From: Candidatus Campbellbacteria bacterium
Lineage (GTDB): Bacteria > Patescibacteriota > Minisyncoccia > Phycocordibacterales > GCA-2747955
Assembly (NCBI GenBank): GCA_947311625.1
Contig: CAMZKW010000001.1
Coordinates: forward strand, 15,776 to 79,775
Direction: 5' to 3'
DNA: 64,000 nt
The translations under genes were made by a program, and so were the position numbers. This document shows, piece by piece, positions 2,626-55,767 of this stretch (the stretch's first letter is position 1; each line of letters begins with the position of its first letter). The notes under the pieces are model-generated. The model saw nothing but the letters and a program-made list of their open reading frames with translations. It searched no databases and was not told the DNA's origin.

Positions 2626-2955
2626 TTAGAATAGATTGAAATATTTTATAATTGAAACAATTGCAATTGCTCCCCAGAAGGCTTCTAAAAATAAATTTGA
2701 TCAATTTCTATCAACCCAAACTCTGATAGCTAAAAGAATTGCAGCGATTAAATTTAATATTGGATATAAAATATTTGATGATTCAATATAACCAAGAGAA
2801 TTTAAGCCATAGGCTAAAATTAAAAGAATTGTTCCTGCTCAACCAATAATTTTTACTTCTAAACTTGCAGAACTGTTTTTTACTTTTTTTTCATCTGTTT
2901 TTGGAGCAGGATTTTGCTTCGCAAAATCCTGCTCCATATTTTTATTTTCTTCCAT
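2626..2955 (-). CDS. small 3-TM membrane protein, 109 aa, two in-frame TGA
   Basis: Hand translation gives MEENKNMEQDFAKQNPAPK...IIGWAGTILLILAYGL...RVWVDRNW...; 330 nt from ATG to TAA. Confidence 0.45.
2903..2935. repeat. 33-nt perfect palindrome ggagcaggattttgc/ttc/gcaaaatcctgctcc inside the 5' end of CDS 2626..2955
   Basis: 15-bp arms read directly. It encodes EQDFAKQNPAP in frame. The arm motif gcaggattttg recurs in the leader hairpins at 10678 and 54640. Confidence 0.8.
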
Positions 2956-3000: not shown

Positions 3001-3062
3001 TTATCCACAGCTTAGCTAAAAATTTACGAAAATCTATTGACAAAAAAAAAAAACGATAAAAT
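3001..3062 (+). promoter_or_regulatory. cassette promoter (class A): ttatccaca box, then ctattgaca, an A-run, and acgataaaat
   Basis: TTGACA at 3037..3042 and TAAAAT at 3057..3062 (14-nt spacer). The motif ctattgacaaaa...aaacgat(t)ataa(t) is shared with 28999 and 40413. Confidence 0.45.
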
Positions 3063-3117
3063 TCAATAGTATCTTCTTTTTTTAAAGATGGTACAAAATT
3101 TTTAAAAGGAGGATATT

Positions 3118-3213
3118 ATGCGATCAAAACAACTTCTTATTGATTTGACAATCGGTCGTGGCTCTGGAATCACTGATAGTCAATTTGTATCGGCTGTATC
3201 GGTTACTGTCTAA
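3118..3213 (+). CDS. orphan 31-aa peptide MRSKQLLIDLTIGRGSGITDSQFVSAVSVTV behind a strong SD
   Basis: aaaaggaggatattATG. GC-richer than the flanks. A second SD (gaaaggaggatatc) with a mini-ORF follows at 3264. Confidence 0.35.
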   Translation: MRSKQLLIDLTIGRGSGITDSQFVSAVSVTV

Positions 3214-3328
3214 ATGCCAAAAAGGCAAGGTGCCAAAAAAAATAAAAAAGAAAGGAGGATATCATGATGCCTAGAGATCCCCCTTTGGGGTAAAATGTAT
3301 GAATTACAATTAGTGATTCTTTAATAAT

Positions 3329-3396
3329 GAAAAAAACAAGCCTAAAGCTTGGTTTTTTCTTTTTTGGGGTTGGCGGCGGCGTAGCCGCCGCCAACC
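3329..3396. terminator. composite hairpin element, copy 2: AT-flanked terminator hairpin plus GC palindrome ggttggcggcggc/gta/gccgccgccaacc
   Basis: The first hairpin has A-run/T-run flanks, so it is probably bidirectional. The 13-bp GC palindrome (3368..3396) lies 18 nt past the tsaD stop. Confidence 0.55.
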
Positions 3397-3413
3397 AAAA
3401 CAACCTATAAAAG

Positions 3414-4616
3414 CTATTCTTTTATTTTACAAGTCATTTTTAATTTTAAATTCCCAAAAACCTTTGTTGGTTTTTTAAGATAATCTCCTTTTTTTAGTCT
3501 GTAAAATCCAGCCAAGGCAATCATTAAACCATTGTCACCGGTATATTTTTTATCTGGTAAAAAGACTTCTAAATTTTGAAATTCTTTTTCTAATTTTTTG
3601 AAATCCTTTCTTAATCGGTTATTTGCCGAAACTCCACCTCCAATAATTAAATTTTTGATTTGGTATTTTTTGATAGCTTTTTTTGTTTTTTTAATTAAAA
3701 CTTCTGAAACAGCATTTTCAAATTCCGCCGCTAATTCTTGCTTGAATTTTTGATCATTTTTTTTTCTTTCTCTAACTAGATATAAAACTGCAGTTTTAAG
3801 GCCTGAGAATGAAAAATCAAAATTATCTTTATTTAGCATTGGACGGGGGAGTTGGAGCGGCGGCGTAGCCGCCGCTCCATTTTCTTTCTTCCACTCCTCA
3901 GCCAATTTTGAAATTTTTGGACCACCGGGATAATCAATTCCAATTAATCGAGCAGTTTTATCATAGGCCTCACCAACAGCATCATCTAAAGTTTGTCCTA
4001 GAAGCTCATAATTCATTTCTGATTTAATCAAAATTAATTCTGTATGTCCACCAGAAATTAAGAGTGAAATAGTTGGGTATTTTAATTTTGCCACCTCAAA
4101 AATATTTTTTTCTTTGGATTTTTGAATTAAAGAAGAGAAAATATGACCTTCCATATGATTGGTGGGAATAATTTTTATTTTTCAAATTTCAGCCAAGGCC
4201 TTGGCAAAGTTAAACCCTGTTCAAAGTGACATTTCTAAGCCTGGTCCATAGGTTATGGCCACGGCTGACAATTTTGGTTTTTTATATTTTTCAAAAAAAT
4301 CGATTAAATTTTTTAAATTTTCTTCATCGCGGTTCAAAATTTTTTCTAACTTTTTTAATTCCTTTTTTTCTAATTTTTTTTCTTTTTTTCTTTTTTCTAA
4401 AAGTCCAGCCTTTTTAAGGGATTTTATAAAAATAGGGTAAAGGTTTTTTATATGCTCTCTTTTGGCTAAGGCAGGAAAAACTCCTCCATATTCTTTGTGT
4501 AAATCAATTTGAGATAAAACAATATCGGACAAAACTTCAAATTTATACTTTGACTTAAAATCAACAATAGAAATTGCAGTTTCATCGCAGGATGTTTCAA
4601 TGGCTAAAATTTTCAT
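3414..4616 (-). CDS. tsaD: tRNA N6-threonylcarbamoyladenosine synthase TsaD, 400 aa, two in-frame TGA
   Basis: MKILAIETSCDETA..., YGPGLEMSL-W-TGFNFAKALAEI-W-KIKIIPTNHMEGH, FDFSFSGLKTA. Junction 4155..4220 was translated by hand. Confidence 0.9.
3854..3878. repeat. 25-nt GC palindrome ggagcggcggc/gta/gccgccgctcc in frame inside tsaD
   Basis: It encodes GAAATPPL just before the conserved LPRPM. The core gcggcggcgtagccgccgc is identical to the intergenic copy at 3372..3390. Confidence 0.85.
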
Positions 4617-10467: not shown

Positions 10468-10566
10468 ATATAAATTTATTTTAACATTTTTAAAAAAACT
10501 AAAAAAATTATTTTTATATAAAAATGTATAAAAAAGTGTATTTTATGTTGATAAGATTAAAAAGAC

Positions 10567-10595
10567 TTGACAAATAAAATATATTATGATACAAT
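10567..10595 (+). promoter_or_regulatory. cassette promoter (class B): TTGACA, 17-nt spacer, TGaTACAAT
   Basis: cttgacaaataaaatatattatgatacaat. Near-identical to cttgacaaatagaatatatatgatacaat at 54533. Confidence 0.6.
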
Positions 10596-10635: not shown

Positions 10636-10907
10636 GGATGGCTTTGCTTCGCAAAGCCATCCAATCAAAATATAGTTGAGAAGCAGGATTTTGAAGAAAA
10701 ATATTTTGAAAACACAACCAACTCAAAATATTTTTCCTCAAAATCCTGCTTCTCAGCAGAATGATGGTAATCCATTCCAATTTTTATTGTTCATTGATGT
10801 CCTGCTCGGACGGAGAACTCAGGCAACCCTGCTCTATGGGTATAAAGATTTTGTGCATATGGGAGCACTGGTAAAAAATTCCCTAGGCTTTTAAGGAGGC
10901 CGAAAAA
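10636..10907 (+). promoter_or_regulatory. about 270-nt structured 5' leader of the 589-aa orphan gene
   Basis: GC hairpin ggatggctttgc/ttc/gcaaagccatcc (10636..10662). 32-bp hairpin at 10678..10754 with one mismatch. SD ttaaggaggccgaaaaaATG. Confidence 0.55.
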
Positions 10908-12677
10908 ATGGAAACAATTACAATTAAAACAGCCGCACATGCTACTCAAATAGATATGAAAAAATTTGAGGAGCAAATGCTGGCTGCTGAGGCCAACGGT
11001 GTGGTTGATACAATAGAGGTACCGGCACAAAAGCCGGATAGTAGGATCGTTGTTAAAAAAAGTATTAGAAGGTCCATTAGAGGCCTTTTAAAATATGAGC
11101 TGATTTTCAGAGAAAATCAGCCAGTAACAATGAATAGAAGGGGGCTACAGATGATGTATGCCCCATACATGCATCAATTCAAAGAAGTGTATGGGGAAAA
11201 CTTCTTTGACTATAATATAAATTATGGAATCTCCTCAGCATATCTAGGTTGGGGAGATGGGTTTGATTTTAAAGATGTTCCCTACGACACTGAGGTTATA
11301 GGGAAGTATGCCAAGTTGGCAAAGTTCCTTAAAGACATCATCTGGGATAATCTAGGTTATATTAGAGAATGGATTTATTCTTGTAATGGGAATGGTGTGG
11401 GAACCGTAAATGTTGGCGGTCATTATCCATGGTATGAAGATGTGGTAAAAATGCAAATGTCAGCTCATCGTCTTAATAATAAGGCTCATGCCTTAAAATT
11501 AAAAACCATGGAAAAACATGGGCGATGGATAAAAAAAGAGAGTGCTGTTAAGTTGGTACTTGAATGTCCAACTATGCCAATATCAAAATTGGCGACGGTG
11601 GCAGCAGCTAAAAGCTTAGGGTTGGAGACAACAATAACCCAGGAAAAGCTATCATTGGTTAACCAGTTCACTTCCACTGTAGATCCTTTAGAATATAAAG
11701 GAGGGTGGGGACACAACTGGCAGAAGAAGGCCCCAGAGGGAAAAATATGGATGGTAAGAAAAATCCATTCTTTCCAGGTTTCCAGAGACTCTCTCGCTTT
11801 GAGAGAAGTTGCAAAAAGAGCATCTGAAAAAGGAGAGGTGCTTGTGTTGGAAGAGCCAACTCCTGTTGGCGGCAGAGCTACTAAGAGGGTTGTTATGAAA
11901 AGAGTGGGTAATATCCACTGGAGAAAAACAACTCTATTTAGTTACCATGGAGATCCACAAGAGTATCTCTTAGATGGGTATAATCCAAGAGGATACTGGG
12001 ATGCATATAGTTGGATCCCATTCCTCCAAAAAATCCCGATCGATATATCGAGTGAGGATGAAGCTCTAATTTTAGAGCATAAGGACTTGGTGATATTCCA
12101 ACCTAAGTTAGTTGGAGGTCAAGAGGTTGTTGATGTCAAAAAGACATTGGCAAATATTGCCAAGTTCAAAAAGTCAAAAGAGGTAGAACTCGAAGGTGTA
12201 AATCTGAGAGTTCTTAGGGAATTCACTAGGAATGGATATAAATTCCAGTTTGGGTGGCAACTCGAATATGAAAATAATGTGTTGAAAGCATTATTTTCAA
12301 AACCTCAAATAATCTCTGTGAAAGAGGTAGCTACTGGTGAGATTTATCAAACCAGTAGTAAAACAATCTCCGAAGCTCTTAGATATGCAGTTGATGCATT
12401 TGAAAAAAGAGCTGCTGCGAAAGTCTTGCAGCAGGAGGTTGAAGAGGTGGCTATCCCAGAGAAAGGAGTACTTGTTTATTTACAAGACTCCTACGCAGTT
12501 GGTAACTGCCAGGTTGGGGCTGAGGCGTGGATGAGAGAGATGGGATTTTCTGGAAAGAAAATCGTACCTCTCCATGAGGTCCACGCTGCTGCTGAAGCAA
12601 GCAACAACAACTTGGCCCGTAATGTGGTCAAGTTTGTTGTTGCCAAGTATTTGGCGGCGAATAAGGAGGTTGCGTAG
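10908..12677 (+). CDS. orphan 589-aa protein with no domain I recognise; GC-rich, TGA-free, 13 TGG Trp codons
   Basis: Uninterrupted ORF behind a strong SD. Composition is clearly GC-richer than the neighbours. The TAG stop sits in the loop of hairpin 12665..12685. Confidence 0.7.
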   Translation: METITIKTAAHATQIDMKKFEEQMLAAEANGVVDTIEVPAQKPDSRIVVKKSIRRSIRGLLKYELIFRENQPVTMNRRGLQMMYAPYMHQFKEVYGENFFDYNINYGISSAYLGWGDGFDFKDVPYDTEVIGKYAKLAKFLKDIIWDNLGYIREWIYSCNGNGVGTVNVGGHYPWYEDVVKMQMSAHRLNNKAHALKLKTMEKHGRWIKKESAVKLVLECPTMPISKLATVAAAKSLGLETTITQEKLSLVNQFTSTVDPLEYKGGWGHNWQKKAPEGKIWMVRKIHSFQVSRDSLALREVAKRASEKGEVLVLEEPTPVGGRATKRVVMKRVGNIHWRKTTLFSYHGDPQEYLLDGYNPRGYWDAYSWIPFLQKIPIDISSEDEALILEHKDLVIFQPKLVGGQEVVDVKKTLANIAKFKKSKEVELEGVNLRVLREFTRNGYKFQFGWQLEYENNVLKALFSKPQIISVKEVATGEIYQTSSKTISEALRYAVDAFEKRAAAKVLQQEVEEVAIPEKGVLVYLQDSYAVGNCQVGAEAWMREMGFSGKKIVPLHEVHAAAEASNNNLARNVVKFVVAKYLAANKEVA

Positions 12678-12822
12678 CAACCTCCATGGAATCGCTGTGG
12701 TGGCGACTTCAAAAAAAAATCCACGGTTAGTGGTTATAAAAAGATATTGATTAAATATACTTTTTACTTATCCAGTTGCTAAATAAATTTTAGATATTGG
12801 TTGGTGAAATGTAAAATATTAA

Positions 12823-12849
12823 ATGGCTCGGCGCGAAGCGCCGAGCCAT
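12823..12849. terminator. GC hairpin atggctcggcgc/gaa/gcgccgagccat followed by a T-run
   Basis: 12-bp stem followed by tttttgttttttttt. Confidence 0.7.
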
Positions 12850-12877
12850 TTTTGTTTTTTTTTGATATAATATTTCT

Positions 12878-13696
12878 ATGAAAAAGCACTCTATAGAATT
12901 AAGAAAAAAAAGACTGGAAAAAAAAATAAAAAATATATTATTTTTTAAAATTTTTCCCTCTGTATTCTTATTTTCAATATTTGTATTATTTTTTAATTCT
13001 GATTATTTATCAATAAAAAAAAATGATATAGATATAAAAAATAAAAAGTATCTAGATCAAAAAAAAATAGATGAAATAGTAAATTCTATTTTAAATGAAA
13101 AATACTATAATATTTTTTCTAAAAAAAATTATTTATTTTATCCAAAAAATGAAATAAAAAATAAATTAAAGGATAATTTTAAAGAACTTAAAAGTGTAGA
13201 AATAAAAAATGGTGATTATTTTAATAATATTATTTTAAATTTAGAAGAAGAAAAAAGAAATTATATATTTTGTAAATCTAAAAAAGAAAGCCAATGCTTT
13301 GAAGTTTCATCTGAAGGTTTTATTTTTAAAAAAATAAAATATAAAACAAGTTCTAATTTAATTTTAATTTCTAATAATTATAATTTGGGAGATAATTTTT
13401 TTGAATCACAAAAAAAAAAAGAAAAAATATTCGAAATTATAAATTTTTTGAATAATATTAAAAAAGAAAAAGTGGTATTTTTAAGCAAGCCAGATAATTA
13501 TTTTTATATTTTAGAATTAAAAAATAATTTAAAAATTATTATTAGATCGAATTTTAAAAAAGATGATATTATTTTAAAAATAAATAAATTCTTTTCTAAA
13601 ATTAAATATAAAAACTTATCTTATATCAATTTTACTCTAAAGAATAGAATAAGTTATTGTGAGAAAGGTGAAATATGTGAAAAAAATTTTAAATAG
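12878..13696 (+). CDS. membrane-anchored hypothetical protein (FtsQ/DivIB-like topology), 272 aa
   Basis: One N-terminal TM, then an Asn/Lys-rich domain. tgatataat lies 6 nt before the ATG. Confidence 0.3.
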   Translation: MKKHSIELRKKRLEKKIKNILFFKIFPSVFLFSIFVLFFNSDYLSIKKNDIDIKNKKYLDQKKIDEIVNSILNEKYYNIFSKKNYLFYPKNEIKNKLKDNFKELKSVEIKNGDYFNNIILNLEEEKRNYIFCKSKKESQCFEVSSEGFIFKKIKYKTSSNLILISNNYNLGDNFFESQKKKEKIFEIINFLNNIKKEKVVFLSKPDNYFYILELKNNLKIIIRSNFKKDDIILKINKFFSKIKYKNLSYINFTLKNRISYCEKGEICEKNFK

Positions 13697-43511: not shown

Positions 43512-43590
43512 TTTTTTCGGCTGAAATTTTATTTAGAAAAAGTAGCGGCGTAGCCGCTACTTTTTCTAAATAAAATTTCAGCCGAAAAAA
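43512..43590. repeat. 79-nt perfect hairpin: 38-bp stem with a gta loop
   Basis: ttttttcggctgaaattttatttagaaaaagtagcggc / gta / exact reverse complement. The core gcggc-gta-gccgc is shared with 3368 and 3854. Confidence 0.85.
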
Positions 43591-46773: not shown

Positions 46774-46802
46774 TTTTTCATTTTTTTTATTTCTATAAAA
46801 TA

Positions 46803-46850
46803 AAAAGACTACGAGATAAATTGCTATAGCAATTTATCTCGTAGTCTTTT
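46803..46850. terminator. 22-bp perfect hairpin after rpmG
   Basis: aaaagactacgagataaattgc/tata/gcaatttatctcgtagtctttt. Confidence 0.7.
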
Positions 46851-46885
46851 TATTATCTTTTTTATAGTGTATAATGTTTTTTATT

Positions 46886-46956
46886 GGGGAGTTAGTTAAA
46901 TGGTATAACCGCGGTCTCCAAAACCGCTATTAGAAGTTCGATTCTTCTACTCCTCG
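46886..46956 (+). tRNA. tRNA-Trp(CCA)
   Basis: ggggagt ta gtta aatggtat aac c gcggt ctCCAaa accgc ... discriminator G. Confidence 0.8.
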
Positions 46957-46999
46957 CAAAAATAAAAATATACTATTTTTTTAGTGTATTTTTTATTTG

Positions 47000-47070: not shown

Positions 47071-47168
47071 ATACTTTTTTAAAGTGAAAGTATTTTAACA
47101 TTTTTTATTTAAAAAATAAAGAGAAAAAAAATATAAATTTTATTTAAAATTTATATTTTTTACTTTTG

Positions 47169-47239
47169 CAGGCGATGGGGGAATCGAACCCACAACGACG
47201 GTTTTGAAGACCGTAGTTTTACCGTTAAACTAATCGCCT
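47169..47239 (-). tRNA. tRNA(UCA) with Trp-like identity; reads UGA
   Basis: aggcgat ta gttt aacggta aaac t acggt ctTCAaa accgt ... atcgcct g. A1:U72 plus G73 as in bacterial tRNA-Trp. The anticodon arm nearly matches that of the CCA tRNA. Confidence 0.8.
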
Positions 47240-54332: not shown

Positions 54333-54424
54333 CAAAAATTTATAAAAATCTGCGAATGCGGTTTTTTCTTTAATTTCTGGCTCTTAGCAGGAGGAATTAA
54401 AATTTATCCAATTATTTTATGAAA

Positions 54425-54468
54425 ATAGTAAGTGTTATAATGTTACGTAACATTGTAACACTTACTAT
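54425..54468. repeat. 44-bp palindrome (22-bp arms, one mismatch) between tRNA-Arg and the cassette promoter
   Basis: atagtaagtgttataatgttac | gtaacattgtaacacttactat. Confidence 0.8.
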
Positions 54469-54533
54469 TATTTATATCGTTTAATTTAGAATTAGGAAAT
54501 ATACACAAGATATTAACAAATTTATTTAATTCT

Positions 54534-54561
54534 CTTGACAAATAGAATATATATGATACAA
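54534..54561 (+). promoter_or_regulatory. cassette promoter (class B, paralog of 10567): TTGACA, 16-nt spacer, tgaTACAAT
   Basis: cttgacaaatagaatatatatgatacaat. Confidence 0.6.
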
Positions 54562-54602
54562 TGTATTTAGTCAAATAAAGAAATACTTTTTTATATAAAA
54601 AA

Positions 54603-54848
54603 GGGGCTGGTTCGCGAAGCGAACCAGCCCCTAAACCCCAACAGGATTTTGGTTTTTAATATTTAGAAATTAAAATCCTGTTTGGGTTTGCCTACTCAAA
54701 CAGGAATCTTGGAAAGCGGGAGGCAACTCTCTTTCTAAGATTTATATAAAAAGGTAGAGGTGCTCCAATGATGAGCTAATAAAGGCAGAAAAAAACTGCT
54801 AAGGCAAAGGCTGAAATTAAATTGAGCCCTTGAGGAGGGGCAAAAAAA
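54603..54848 (+). promoter_or_regulatory. about 245-nt structured leader, same architecture as 10636..10907
   Basis: GC hairpin ggggctggttcgc/gaa/gcgaaccagcccc. Hairpin aacaggatttt...aaaatcctgtt at 54640..54682. SD ttgaggaggggcaaaaaaaATG. Confidence 0.55.
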
Positions 54849-55205
54849 ATGAGGATTTTACTTGTTATTATGATGGCAATAGTGTCAATGGCACAAGAAA
54901 TTGACATAAGGGAATTGCTCATACAAAAACACCCTTGTATGAGTATGAAAAAATATGATACAAAGGATGTCTTGAAGAGACAAAAAAAAATTATTTATTC
55001 CAAGCGTTACAAACGTTTGCAATATATAAAAATGTTAGATAGGAGGCTTGAAGAGTGTAGAAAAGTTTCTCCTTTTTTAGCAAAAATAAGATTCCAGGAA
55101 TTATCAAAAAGAGATCGATATGATCTCTTAAAGTATGTTAGCCATACTTCATTTTTGGAATATAATAACAGGCCTCCTTCATCTGGTACGGGGGCAAGTA
55201 AGTAG
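54849..55205 (+). CDS. orphan 118-aa basic protein with signal-like N-terminus, SD-led, TAG stop
   Basis: MRILLVIMMAIVSMAQE.... GC-richer than the flanks. No TGA. Confidence 0.5.
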   Translation: MRILLVIMMAIVSMAQEIDIRELLIQKHPCMSMKKYDTKDVLKRQKKIIYSKRYKRLQYIKMLDRRLEECRKVSPFLAKIRFQELSKRDRYDLLKYVSHTSFLEYNNRPPSSGTGASK

Positions 55206-55302: not shown

Positions 55303-55767
55303 TTATTTTTTTTTATCAATTTTTATATCATAAATACAATAATTTTTTCCTCAACATTTTAGAATATAAAGAGAATAAAGTTGTCCTAAAATTGCGATTA
55401 GAATAATCCAAACTGCATAGTCTTCAAAAAAACCTTGAGCAATTGTTGGTAAGAAAGTTAGTCCGATGCTTCCACCCAAGGCAGCGCCACACATAGGAGC
55501 ACCAATTCCACAAACTTGAGTGGCTAAAATTCCAAAAAGTGAAAGAATTATTGAAAGTCAAGATTTACCAGTTTTTGCATTTAGTTTTATTCTTTCTTTA
55601 GTGTTTCTGAAAATGCAGGTTATGGTTAGGGCGGTTGAAAGAATAAAAGAATAGGCTAAAAGATTATATGATCCAAAAAATATTTTCTCAGGAATTAGAA
55701 AATAAATTCCAAAAAGAGAAAGAATAAAAATTAGGACACATCATTTAGATTTTAAAATACAAAACAT
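55303..55767 (-). CDS. membrane protein, 154 aa, three in-frame TGA
   Basis: Hand translation: MFCILKSKWCVLIFILSLFG...GIGAPMCGAALGGSIG.... Confidence 0.4.

What the first reader, a model, noticed from the sequence alone, without database searches (positions are those of the whole stretch)
54534..54848. Two cassettes share a paralogous promoter and a long structured 5' leader RNA
The promoters cttgacaaata(a/g)aatatat..tgatacaat at 10566 and 54533 are nearly identical. Both transcripts then have the same order of elements. First comes a GC hairpin with a ttc or gaa loop (10636..10662 and 54603..54631). Next is a hairpin whose arms carry caggatttt / aaaatcctg (10678..10754 with a 32-bp stem, and 54640..54682). 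Then follow 130-160 nt with shared short blocks (ggcaac-ct, ataaagatttt versus taagatttat, gagcac versus gtgctc). A very strong SD ends each leader. The downstream proteins (589 aa and 118 aa) are unrelated. It is therefore the leader, not the cargo, that is conserved, which suggests a cis-regulatory or processing RNA module that can be attached to different genes.
Basis: seen in the sequence. Interest (0 to 1): 0.75.

Follow-up and report, generated by a model that had tools for sequence, protein, structure and literature searches.

The report
Two strong-promoter cassettes, only partly shared leaders
Two strongly expressed gene cassettes share a near-consensus promoter and two hairpins just downstream of it, but the large folded leader RNA belongs only to the 589-aa gene and travels with that gene family in other genomes and phage-like contigs, so it is not a portable module.

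Summary
The listed elements are all at the stated coordinates.

**What copies A and B share**
- A near-consensus sigma-70 promoter with an extended -10. An unrelated Staphylococcus phage promoter matches copy A at 29 of 33 bases, so convergence could explain the identity.
- A T-run/A-run palindrome plus a GC hairpin 39-40 nt after the -10. This hairpin is the genome's ordinary terminator type and is oriented for the minus strand.
- A second hairpin whose arms share CAGGATTTTG.
- A strong SD.

**What they do not share**
- Covariance models built from copy A's leader do not pick out copy B (7-8 bits for the 3' half; 14 bits, E 0.48, for hairpin 2).
- Alignment without the promoter is only weakly above background.

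**Copy A's leader is a real conserved RNA**
- It is 80% identical to the leader of a gene whose protein is 26-49% identical.
- Its core is a three-way junction with an invariant UGCUCUAU loop.
- The core recurs, with compensatory changes, upstream of homologues in six independent loci, some phage-like.
- No Rfam family matches. Copy B lacks the core.

The leader core therefore follows its cargo. The host reads TGA as Trp, yet the 589-aa gene uses only TGG and is GC-rich, which suggests foreign, probably phage, ancestry.

The parts
54535..54562 (+). Copy B promoter-like site (TTGACA, 16 nt, TACAAT, TG extension)
   Evidence: 11 of 12 consensus positions.
54587..54632 (.). Copy B T6-ATAT-A6 palindrome followed by GC hairpin 1 (14 pairs, GAA triloop). 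Read on the minus strand, it is a hairpin followed by a T-run, i.e. an intrinsic-terminator form.
54636..54686 (+). Copy B hairpin 2. Arms carry CAGGATTTTG / AAAATCCTG. Three G-U pairs make it more stable on the plus strand.
   Evidence: The CM of copy A's hairpin 2 gives only 14.2 bits, E 0.48.
54706..54741 (+). Copy B central hairpin (AUCUUGGAAAG..GGAG-GCAA-CUCU..CUUUCUAAGAU). It holds the 'ggcaac' and 'taagattt' blocks. No counterpart of the copy A core.
54832..55205 (+). Copy B SD (GAGGAGGGG) and 118-aa ORF (54849-55205). Orphan protein with a signal-peptide-like N-terminus.
10567..10595 (+). Copy A promoter-like site (TTGACA, 17 nt, TACAAT, TG extension)
   Evidence: It is 29 of 33 identical to a Staphylococcus phage promoter.
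10615..10662 (.). Copy A T/A-run palindrome plus GC hairpin 1 (12 pairs, TTC triloop), in minus-strand terminator form. Kept in L007 with a completely different stem sequence.
10678..10754 (+). Copy A hairpin 2 (34 pairs). The base GAGAAGCAGGATT is identical in L007.
10763..10776 (+). Hairpin 3 (GAUGG-UAAU-CCAUU), with two compensatory pair changes in L007.
   Evidence: pairs 171/182 and 173/180.
10779..10850 (+). Conserved three-way-junction core of leader A. P1 is 10779-10787 paired with 10842-10850. Hairpin H4a is 10799-10811 (loop UGCUC). Hairpin P3 is 10826-10841 (stem ACCC/GGGU, loop UGCUCUAU).
   Evidence: The same architecture lies upstream of homologues in L007, L141, L170/L171, L018/L019 and L016.
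10893..12677 (+). Copy A SD (AAGGAGG) and 589-aa ORF (10908-12677). GC about 40%, 13 TGG and 0 TGA. Member of an uncharacterised family with a conserved C-terminal domain of about 100 aa.
12678..12866 (+). Copy A 3' UTR, conserved in L140 (78% over 183 nt) and in part in L007. It ends in a plus-strand intrinsic terminator at 12821-12851 followed by a T-run.
2902..2936 (.). Third palindrome with the same arms (GCAGGATTTTGC-TTC-GCAAAATCCTGC). It lies at the start of a minus-strand ORF.

Best explanation
These are two separate, strongly expressed cassettes in an AT-rich bacterium that reads TGA as Trp. Both carry the same kind of high-expression front end:
- a near-optimal sigma-A-type promoter;
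- about 40 nt later, a very stable GC hairpin preceded by a T/A-run;
- a second long hairpin;
- a strong SD.

This front end is either a short duplicated module of about 120-150 nt or a convergent design. It is not a common long leader RNA.

The hairpins probably do two things. On the mRNA they would act as 5'-proximal stabilisers, and the long perfect duplex could be an RNase III site. Hairpin 1 with its minus-strand T-run would stop antisense transcription from running back into the promoter and the neighbouring dnaB or tRNA-Arg genes.

The remaining 150 nt or so of copy A's leader is a different thing. It is a cargo-specific conserved RNA: a three-way junction with two hairpin loops carrying UGCUC(UAU). 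It has co-evolved with the 589-aa protein family, which is phage-associated in distant members. It most likely acts as a cis-regulatory operator for that gene, for example autogenous translational control by the encoded protein.

Shown: the elements themselves, their conservation, the covariation, the link to the cargo, and the absence of the core in copy B. Inferred: the transcript start, and the stabiliser, insulator and operator functions.
For: - **Front end.** Promoters, hairpins and SDs are at the stated places. The spacing from the -10 to hairpin 1 is 40 versus 39 nt. The 9-mer CAGGATTTT occurs 7 times in the window, 6 of them in three palindromes.
- **Copy B is not a leader-A homologue.** blastn finds the promoter only. 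Model R1 gives 7-8 bits. Model R2 gives 14.2 bits, E 0.48. No core motif within 2 mismatches.
- **Leader A is conserved.** It is 80% identical over 318 nt to L007, while the proteins are 26-49% identical in patches. Of 92 predicted pairs, 12 carry double changes.
- **The core follows the cargo.** It lies upstream and on the same strand as homologues in L007, L141, L170/L171, L018/L019 and L016. All 16 pairs of P1, H4a and P3 are paired in 5 sequences, 12 with changes on both sides, 0 of 500 shuffles as good. Searching upstream of the fixed 3' strand next to P3 finds a P1 helix of 9-11 bp in each sequence, p = 0.012-0.05 each; the spacing is 41-45 nt in four of five. G-U pairs in P1 and P3 favour the plus-strand RNA.
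- **Not a known family.** No Rfam match.
- **Foreign character of cargo A.** GC is 40% against about 27%. Trp codons are 13 TGG and 0 TGA, against 32 TGG and 104 TGA in other ORFs. The syntenic locus L140 shows the same.
- **Phage links.** A distant homologue lies next to a terminase, and another next to phage RNA polymerase beta-like genes.
Against: - There are no transcript data. The start site, the strand of the functional RNA at hairpins 1 and 2, and any processing are all unknown.
- Hairpin 1 has no plus-strand T-run and looks like a minus-strand terminator, yet I found no minus-strand gene or convincing promoter to its right. The insulator role is therefore conjecture.
- The mini-alignment used for pair counting was assembled by hand from helices chosen by eye, which inflates the paired fraction. 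Only the anchored P1 test is free of that choice.
- Only six independent loci carry the core. Some family members lack it: L172 and L142 (L169 has only 129 nt of upstream sequence).
- The models were built from two close sequences, so they are insensitive to a very diverged copy B.
- Copy B shares with A the same order of promoter, T/A palindrome, hairpin 1, a hairpin with the same 10-mer, and then CAG(G)AAU. I estimate by hand that this is unlikely by chance (about 1e-3 for each of the spacing and the 10-mer).
Confidence: 0.55

Rival explanations
1. One paralogous, portable structured leader RNA (promoter, hairpin 1, hairpin 2 and downstream blocks) has been attached to different genes and acts as a common cis-regulatory or processing module. 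Copy B is a diverged copy of the whole leader.
For: - The order of elements is the same, and the promoter-to-hairpin-1 spacing is nearly identical.
- CAGGATTTTG is shared in the hairpin 2 arms.
- Both leaders have a possible alternative pairing that overlaps the 3' arm of hairpin 2 and is followed by CAG(G)AAU (read).
- Both have a hairpin capped GGAG..GCAAC..CUCU followed by AAGAUUU.
- Both have an SD partly enclosed in a small hairpin followed by an A-run.
- Global alignment gives z = 3.2.
Against: - Models of both halves of leader A fail to pick out copy B.
- Copy B lacks the invariant core.
- In all other loci the core accompanies the same protein family.
- Hairpin 1 is a generic hairpin type in this genome.
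- The promoter identity is matched by an unrelated phage promoter.
Confidence: 0.2
2. Countertranscript control. A small antisense RNA is made from the minus strand of each leader. It runs through hairpin 2 and terminates at hairpin 1 plus its T-run. By pairing with the complementary leader hairpin it controls the mRNA, as antisense RNAs do for the leaders of plasmid replication-gene mRNAs.
For: - In A, B and L007, hairpin 1 is a near-ideal intrinsic terminator only on the minus strand.
- It is followed, in minus-strand order preceded, by a long stem-loop. This is the layout of such systems (established knowledge of R1 CopA/CopT and pT181, recalled, not tested).
- Sub-threshold Rfam hits to terminator-type leaders fall on the minus strand.
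Against: - No sigma-70-like minus-strand promoter lies to the right of hairpin 2 in A or L007, and only weak candidates in B.
- The region where such a promoter would sit shows compensatory changes typical of plus-strand RNA structure.
- G-U pairs in copy B's hairpin 2 favour the plus strand.
Confidence: 0.1
3. DNA-level palindromic repeats. Hairpins 1 and 2 are copies of a genome-wide family of palindromic elements (REP- or MITE-like, or the product of a hairpin-generating mutational process). They happen to lie in both leaders and have no leader-specific function.
For: - The window holds about 20 GC-stem hairpins with GNA/TNC triloops and several long perfect palindromes, some inside ORFs.
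- The CAGGATTTT arms recur in a third palindrome inside an ORF start.
- Copy A's hairpin 2 pairs slightly better on the minus strand and copy B's on the plus strand, so there is no consistent strand.
Against: - Hairpin 1 keeps its position and pairing in L007 through a complete change of stem sequence, and the sequence of hairpin 2's base is conserved there. Both argue for selection at this site.
- The spacing from the promoter is identical in A and B.
Confidence: 0.12

Closest known systems
5'-proximal mRNA stabiliser hairpins and RNase III-processed phage leaders (E. coli ompA 5' UTR, B. subtilis aprE/ermC leaders, phage T7 early mRNA RNase III sites; from established knowledge, not tested here)
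   Same: Very stable hairpins lie within the first 35-150 nt of a strongly expressed transcript. One is a long, nearly perfect duplex of 20-34 bp, followed by a strong SD.
   Different: The 5' end has not been mapped. Hairpin 1 carries a T-run on the opposite strand, which these stabilisers do not need. No cleavage evidence.
Autogenous translational operators in leaders of phage and ribosomal-protein genes (T4 gene 32 and regA targets, MS2 coat-protein operator, thrS and r-protein leaders; established knowledge)
   Same: A conserved structured RNA lies just upstream of the gene and co-occurs with one protein family. It has invariant loop nucleotides on covarying stems (UGCUC in H4a, UGCUCUAU in P3).
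   Different: No evidence that the 589-aa protein binds RNA. No Pfam domain and no fold match. In some homologues the motif sits 80-320 nt from the start codon, not over the SD.
Prophage 'morons' (a foreign gene with its own promoter and terminator inserted among unrelated genes)
   Same: Cassette A has its own consensus promoter and intrinsic terminator. Its GC content and codon choice are atypical, its relatives are phage-linked, and housekeeping genes (dnaB, L25) flank it.
   Different: There is no prophage around it. It is syntenic in a related genome (L140), so it is a long-resident gene rather than a recent insertion.
Antisense-RNA (countertranscript) controlled leaders of plasmid replication genes (R1 CopA/CopT, pT181, pIP501; established knowledge)
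   Same: The layout is promoter, inverted terminator hairpin, long stem-loop, SD, gene.
   Different: No antisense promoter was found, and this is not a replication gene context.
boxA/nut-type antitermination sites (rrn boxA UGCUCUUUAACAA; recalled from memory, a lead only)
   Same: The invariant loop UGCUCUAU shares its first six or seven bases with boxA, and a hairpin lies next to it.
   Different: The rest of boxA is absent. The motif sits in hairpin loops, not in a single-stranded linear site.

Membership tests
Any Rfam 15 RNA family | Score at or above the family's gathering threshold | tested here: not met
   The window has only tRNAs. E-value scans of both leaders give only sub-threshold hairpin-type hits. 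Related loci give none.
Intrinsic (Rho-independent) terminator, for hairpin 1 | GC-rich stem with a short loop, immediately followed by a T/U-run on the transcribed strand | tested here: met
   Met on the minus strand only, in A, B and L007. On the plus strand the tails have 2 and 0 T in 10 bases.
Intrinsic terminator, for hairpin 1 | Lies at the end of a transcription unit on that strand | tested here: not met
   No minus-strand gene or convincing promoter lies to the right of hairpin 1 in copy A or L007. In copy B a convergent minus-strand ORF (55303-55767) has its own terminator at 55262-55242.
Leader A RNA motif (three-way junction defined here) | P3 hairpin with loop U(G/A)CUCUAU, stacked on a P1 helix of 8-9 bp or more whose 5' strand lies about 40 nt upstream, enclosing a hairpin with a UGCUC-like loop | tested here: met
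   Met for copy A and for L007, L141, L170/171, L018/019 and L016.
Leader A RNA motif, for copy B | Same features as above | tested here: not met
   No core within 2 mismatches. R1 gives 7-8 bits, E 4-7.
Countertranscript-controlled leader | Antisense promoter inside the leader that directs an RNA through the stem-loop to the inverted terminator | tested here: inconclusive
   Consensus scans find none in A or L007 and only weak sites in B. Promoter scans cannot exclude weak or non-canonical promoters, and there are no RNA data.
Riboswitch, T-box or ribosomal-protein leader | Match to a known aptamer or leader model | tested here: not met
   The best hits are PyrR at 33 bits (threshold 54) and L20_leader at 23-26 bits (threshold 58.7). 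Both fall on the minus strand and reflect the hairpin-plus-terminator shape.
Integron gene cassette (attC) | Cassettes in an array next to an integrase gene, each ending in an attC site | tested here: not met
   The two cassettes are 44 kb apart among housekeeping genes. I did not run a dedicated integrase search.
REP/MITE-like palindromic repeat family, for hairpins 1 and 2 | Many dispersed copies with a shared sequence | tested here: inconclusive
   The hairpin style is shared (about 20 copies). Only three palindromes share arm sequence. The rest of the genome was not available.

The most novel reading that the evidence does not exclude
The three-way-junction RNA with invariant UGCUC/UGCUCUAU loops is a previously undescribed cis-regulatory RNA class that has co-evolved with an uncharacterised phage-derived protein family. 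It may be the operator through which the protein's conserved C-terminal domain controls its own synthesis. In this TGA=Trp bacterium the gene, with its conserved 5' and 3' UTRs, persists as a compositionally foreign unit that avoids TGA and is driven by a reusable promoter-plus-hairpin front end also found on a second cassette.
Probability: 0.3. Interest if true: 0.6.

Novelty: new member of a known kind. Interest (0 to 1): 0.42.

Why it matters
- **For the original claim.** The idea of a portable leader RNA is mostly not borne out. What the two cassettes share can be explained by optimal expression signals and a generic hairpin type.
- **What is new.** The follow-up found a candidate structured leader RNA with real covariation. 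It has no Rfam counterpart and is tied to a protein family of unknown function found both in phage-like contigs and in a bacterium with a reassigned stop codon.
- **A puzzle it raises.** In two related genomes the gene avoids the host's preferred Trp codon (TGA) and keeps a much higher GC content. This bears on how foreign genes persist in recoded hosts.
- **Testability.** The predictions are simple: mutate the loops, map the transcript ends, and test whether the protein binds the RNA.

Tried and rejected
- **The 14-mer CCCTGCTCTATGGG in IMG/VR.** It gave more than 120 hits, including a large family with extended conservation. That family is a protein-coding gene on the other strand, with three-base periodicity and a readable ORF, and none of the loci encodes a homologue. 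Rejected as unrelated.
- **Longer core and second-block patterns in IMG/VR**. The hits are at chance level and in coding DNA. L146 has the 19-mer flanked by a 7-bp complement but sits before an unrelated 114-aa ORF. Not used.
- **Promoter pattern in the species-representative genomes.** Six hits, five in Clostridia-type MAGs and one in an unclassified MAG. None is from this organism, so it is not in that set. The one checked (L001) has no similar downstream element; the script failed before reading the other five.
- **Leader patterns in viral contigs.** No hits.
- **Word-index protein searches.** Only self hits. Exact-sequence contig look-ups of the two window proteins found nothing.
- **Function of the 589-aa protein.** No Pfam family, and only a weak PHROG 'tail assembly chaperone' hit (E 5e-4). 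The AlphaFold model is poor (pLDDT 54). No PDB fold match, and one uncharacterised Myoviridae protein in BFVD. tblastn against GenBank phages found nothing.
- **Initial Gracilibacteria/SR1 guess (TGA = Gly).** Rejected. The tRNA-UCA anticodon arm equals that of tRNA-Trp, and TGA sits at the conserved Trp of TrmD.
- **A third covariance model from natural sequences.** Abandoned because MAFFT put P1 out of register.

Full report
**Setting**

The window is bacterial chromosome, not phage. It carries dnaB, comM, trmD, gatC, rbfA, L25 and ten tRNAs. Many genes are whole only if TGA is read as sense.

TGA is Trp here. The tRNA with anticodon UCA has the same anticodon arm as the neighbouring tRNA-Trp(CCA). 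TGA also falls at the conserved Trp of TrmD (KIEExKK; the comparison with E. coli and B. subtilis TrmD is from memory). Background GC is about 25-30%.

**Check of the observation**

All the listed elements exist at the stated places.
- **Promoters.** TTGACA-17-TACAAT with TG at 10567-10595, and TTGACA-16-TACAAT with TG at 54535-54562. They are two of six near-consensus promoters in 64 kb and match at 28 of 30 positions.
- **T/A palindrome and hairpin 1.** Each promoter is followed after 39-40 nt by a T-run/A-run palindrome and a perfect GC-rich hairpin with a three-base loop (10636-10662; 54602-54632).
- **Hairpin 2.** A longer hairpin follows, with arms that share CAGGATTTT/AAAATCCTG.
- **SD and cargo.** Both leaders end in a strong SD. 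The two proteins are unrelated.

**How much of this is shared beyond generic signals?**

- blastn between the two leaders finds only the promoter.
- Global alignment without the promoter gives z = 3.2 against shuffles. However, 1.8% of random genomic windows do as well, and the best local segment is the T/A-run plus hairpin 1.
- Hairpin 1 is the genome's standard hairpin type. The window has about 20 GC-stem hairpins with GNA or TNC triloops, most at gene ends.
- In A, B and L007, hairpin 1 has its T-run on the minus strand only. It therefore reads as a minus-strand intrinsic terminator placed between a plus-strand promoter and its gene.
- A covariance model of hairpin 2 (from A and L007) scores copy B at 14.2 bits, E 0.48. 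That is below several unrelated palindromes in the window.
- The promoter of copy A is 29 of 33 identical to a promoter-like site in an unrelated Staphylococcus Twortvirinae phage. Convergence on the optimal sigma-A promoter in AT-rich DNA can therefore account for the A/B identity.

Three things remain non-random: the equal spacing from promoter to hairpin 1, the T/A palindrome in front of it, and the shared 10-mer in hairpin 2. Six of the seven occurrences of the 9-mer in the window lie in three palindromes. My rough hand estimates put each coincidence near 1e-3. A short shared front end of about 120-150 nt is therefore likely. A shared long leader is not.

**Leader A is a real conserved RNA, and it belongs to its cargo**

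The 589-aa protein is an orphan by word-index search. An exhaustive phmmer search finds a family of proteins of 400-530 aa with no Pfam domain. They share N-terminal and central motifs and a C-terminal domain of about 100 aa.

The contig of one member, L007, has an upstream region 80% identical to leader A over 318 nt. Its protein aligns only in patches at 26-49% identity. Comparing the two leaders:
- The hairpin 1 stem is completely different but still perfect.
- Hairpin 3 and a small hairpin with loop UGCUC show compensatory changes.
- RNAalifold finds 92 pairs, 12 with changes on both sides.

A 13-nt core, CCTGCTCTATGGG (window 10828), recurs upstream and on the same strand as more distant homologues. 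It is found in L141, L170/L171, L018/L019 and L016, 80-320 nt from the start codon. In every case it forms the same architecture:
- **P3.** Stem (A/G)(C/U)CC with GG(G/A)(U/C), and loop U(G/A)CUCUAU.
- **P1.** P3 is directly followed by the 3' strand of a helix of 9-11 bp. Its 5' strand lies 41-45 nt upstream in four of the five sequences. For L018 the anchored search's best hit lies 100 nt upstream, and I chose by eye a 9-bp partner about 40 nt upstream.
- **H4a.** A second hairpin with a UGCUC-like loop sits in between.

**Tests of the core**
- On a hand-assembled mini-alignment, all 16 pairs are paired in all five sequences, 12 with changes on both sides, and no shuffle reaches this. Because I chose the arms by eye, this overstates the case.
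- Searching upstream for a partner of the fixed 3' strand next to P3 gives p = 0.012-0.05 per sequence against shuffled upstream sequence. This test does not depend on my choice of arms.
- L170 adds two further changes: CCGC/GCGG to CCAC/GUGG in H4a, and U-G to U-A in P3.
- G-U pairs in P1 and P3 point to the plus-strand RNA.
- No Rfam family matches in the window or in these loci.
- Copy B has no such core, and the model of this half of leader A scores it at noise level.
- Some family members lack the core: L142, and L172, which has only a 125-nt upstream intergenic region. L169 cannot be judged because its contig holds only 129 nt upstream. Distant members share other leader blocks.

**Nature of cassette A**
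- Its GC content is about 40%, against about 27% for the surroundings.
- All 13 Trp codons are TGG. Other ORFs of 150 aa or more use 104 TGA and 32 TGG.
- A related genome (L140, GCA_015663155.1) has the closest homologue at the syntenic site upstream of L25. It has the same composition contrast and a 3' UTR 78% identical over 183 nt.
- One distant homologue lies next to a terminase (L015) and another next to phage RNA polymerase beta-like genes (L018).
- The protein's function remains unknown.

**Mechanism**

I commit to the following reading, at about 0.55 confidence. Nothing in it beyond the sequence features, conservation and covariation is demonstrated.
- The two cassettes are independent high-expression units that share a short front end.
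- That front end's hairpins act as 5' stabilisers and/or processing sites on the mRNA.
- Through hairpin 1's minus-strand T-run, the front end also blocks antisense transcription.
- The three-way junction of leader A is a cargo-specific regulatory RNA, most simply an operator for autogenous control.

Rivals are the full portable-leader model (0.2), an antisense countertranscript ending at hairpin 1 (0.1) and non-functional palindromic repeats (0.12).

**Verdict**

The portable-module idea is weak. The by-product, an undescribed cargo-linked leader RNA in a compositionally foreign gene of a TGA=Trp bacterium, is moderately interesting.

Noticed in passing
window 47168-47239 (-), 46886-46957 (+); genome-wide: The organism reads TGA as sense, apparently as Trp. 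A tRNA with anticodon UCA has the anticodon arm of the adjacent tRNA-Trp(CCA). TGA is the majority Trp codon in ORFs of 150 aa or more (104 TGA against 32 TGG).
   Followed up: partly
window 10908-12677; L140 29-427: The 589-aa gene has GC of about 40% and uses TGG for all 13 Trp codons, unlike its neighbours. The syntenic homologue in a related MAG shows the same contrast, so the foreign composition persists over evolutionary time.
   Followed up: partly
window 43512-43590, 46799-46854, 54424-54469: Long perfect palindromes (38, 26 and 20 bp stems) lie in intergenic DNA. The first has a GC core with a GTA triloop. The third lies between tRNA-Arg and the copy B promoter and contains a TGTTATAAT box.
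   Followed up: no
window 2902-2936, 3853-3879: GC-stem triloop hairpins beginning TGGAGC lie inside open reading frames. One overlaps the start of a small membrane-protein ORF on the minus strand and carries the same CAGGATTTT arms as the leader hairpins.
   Followed up: partly
window 3040-3400: A promoter-like TTGACA site is followed by two very short ORFs (about 31 and 9 codons). Each has a strong AAGGAGGA SD, and a strong hairpin follows. This could be a small-peptide or leader-peptide locus.
   Followed up: no
window 12678-12820; L140 430-610; L007 1666-1754: The 3' UTR of the 589-aa gene is conserved (78% over 183 nt with L140). It includes a hairpin that spans the stop codon (GGAGGTTGCGTAGCAACCTCC) and a hairpin with compensatory changes (CCAC..GTGG versus CCAGA..TCTGG).
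   Followed up: partly
L018 4540-5000, L142 440-923, L141 836-1730, L016 3840-5000, L170 2575-2932: Distant homologues in phage-like contigs have non-coding leaders of 0.36-1.1 kb. They share further blocks, for example a 71-nt block at 82% identity between L018 and L142, and GATGTCG(A/T)AAGGCTAC about 50 nt before the start codon. None of these is in Rfam.
   Followed up: partly
window 12878-13696: The ORF just downstream of cassette A has extremely low GC (14-18%) and encodes a Lys/Asn/Ile-rich protein with one N-terminal hydrophobic segment and no Pfam match.
   Followed up: no
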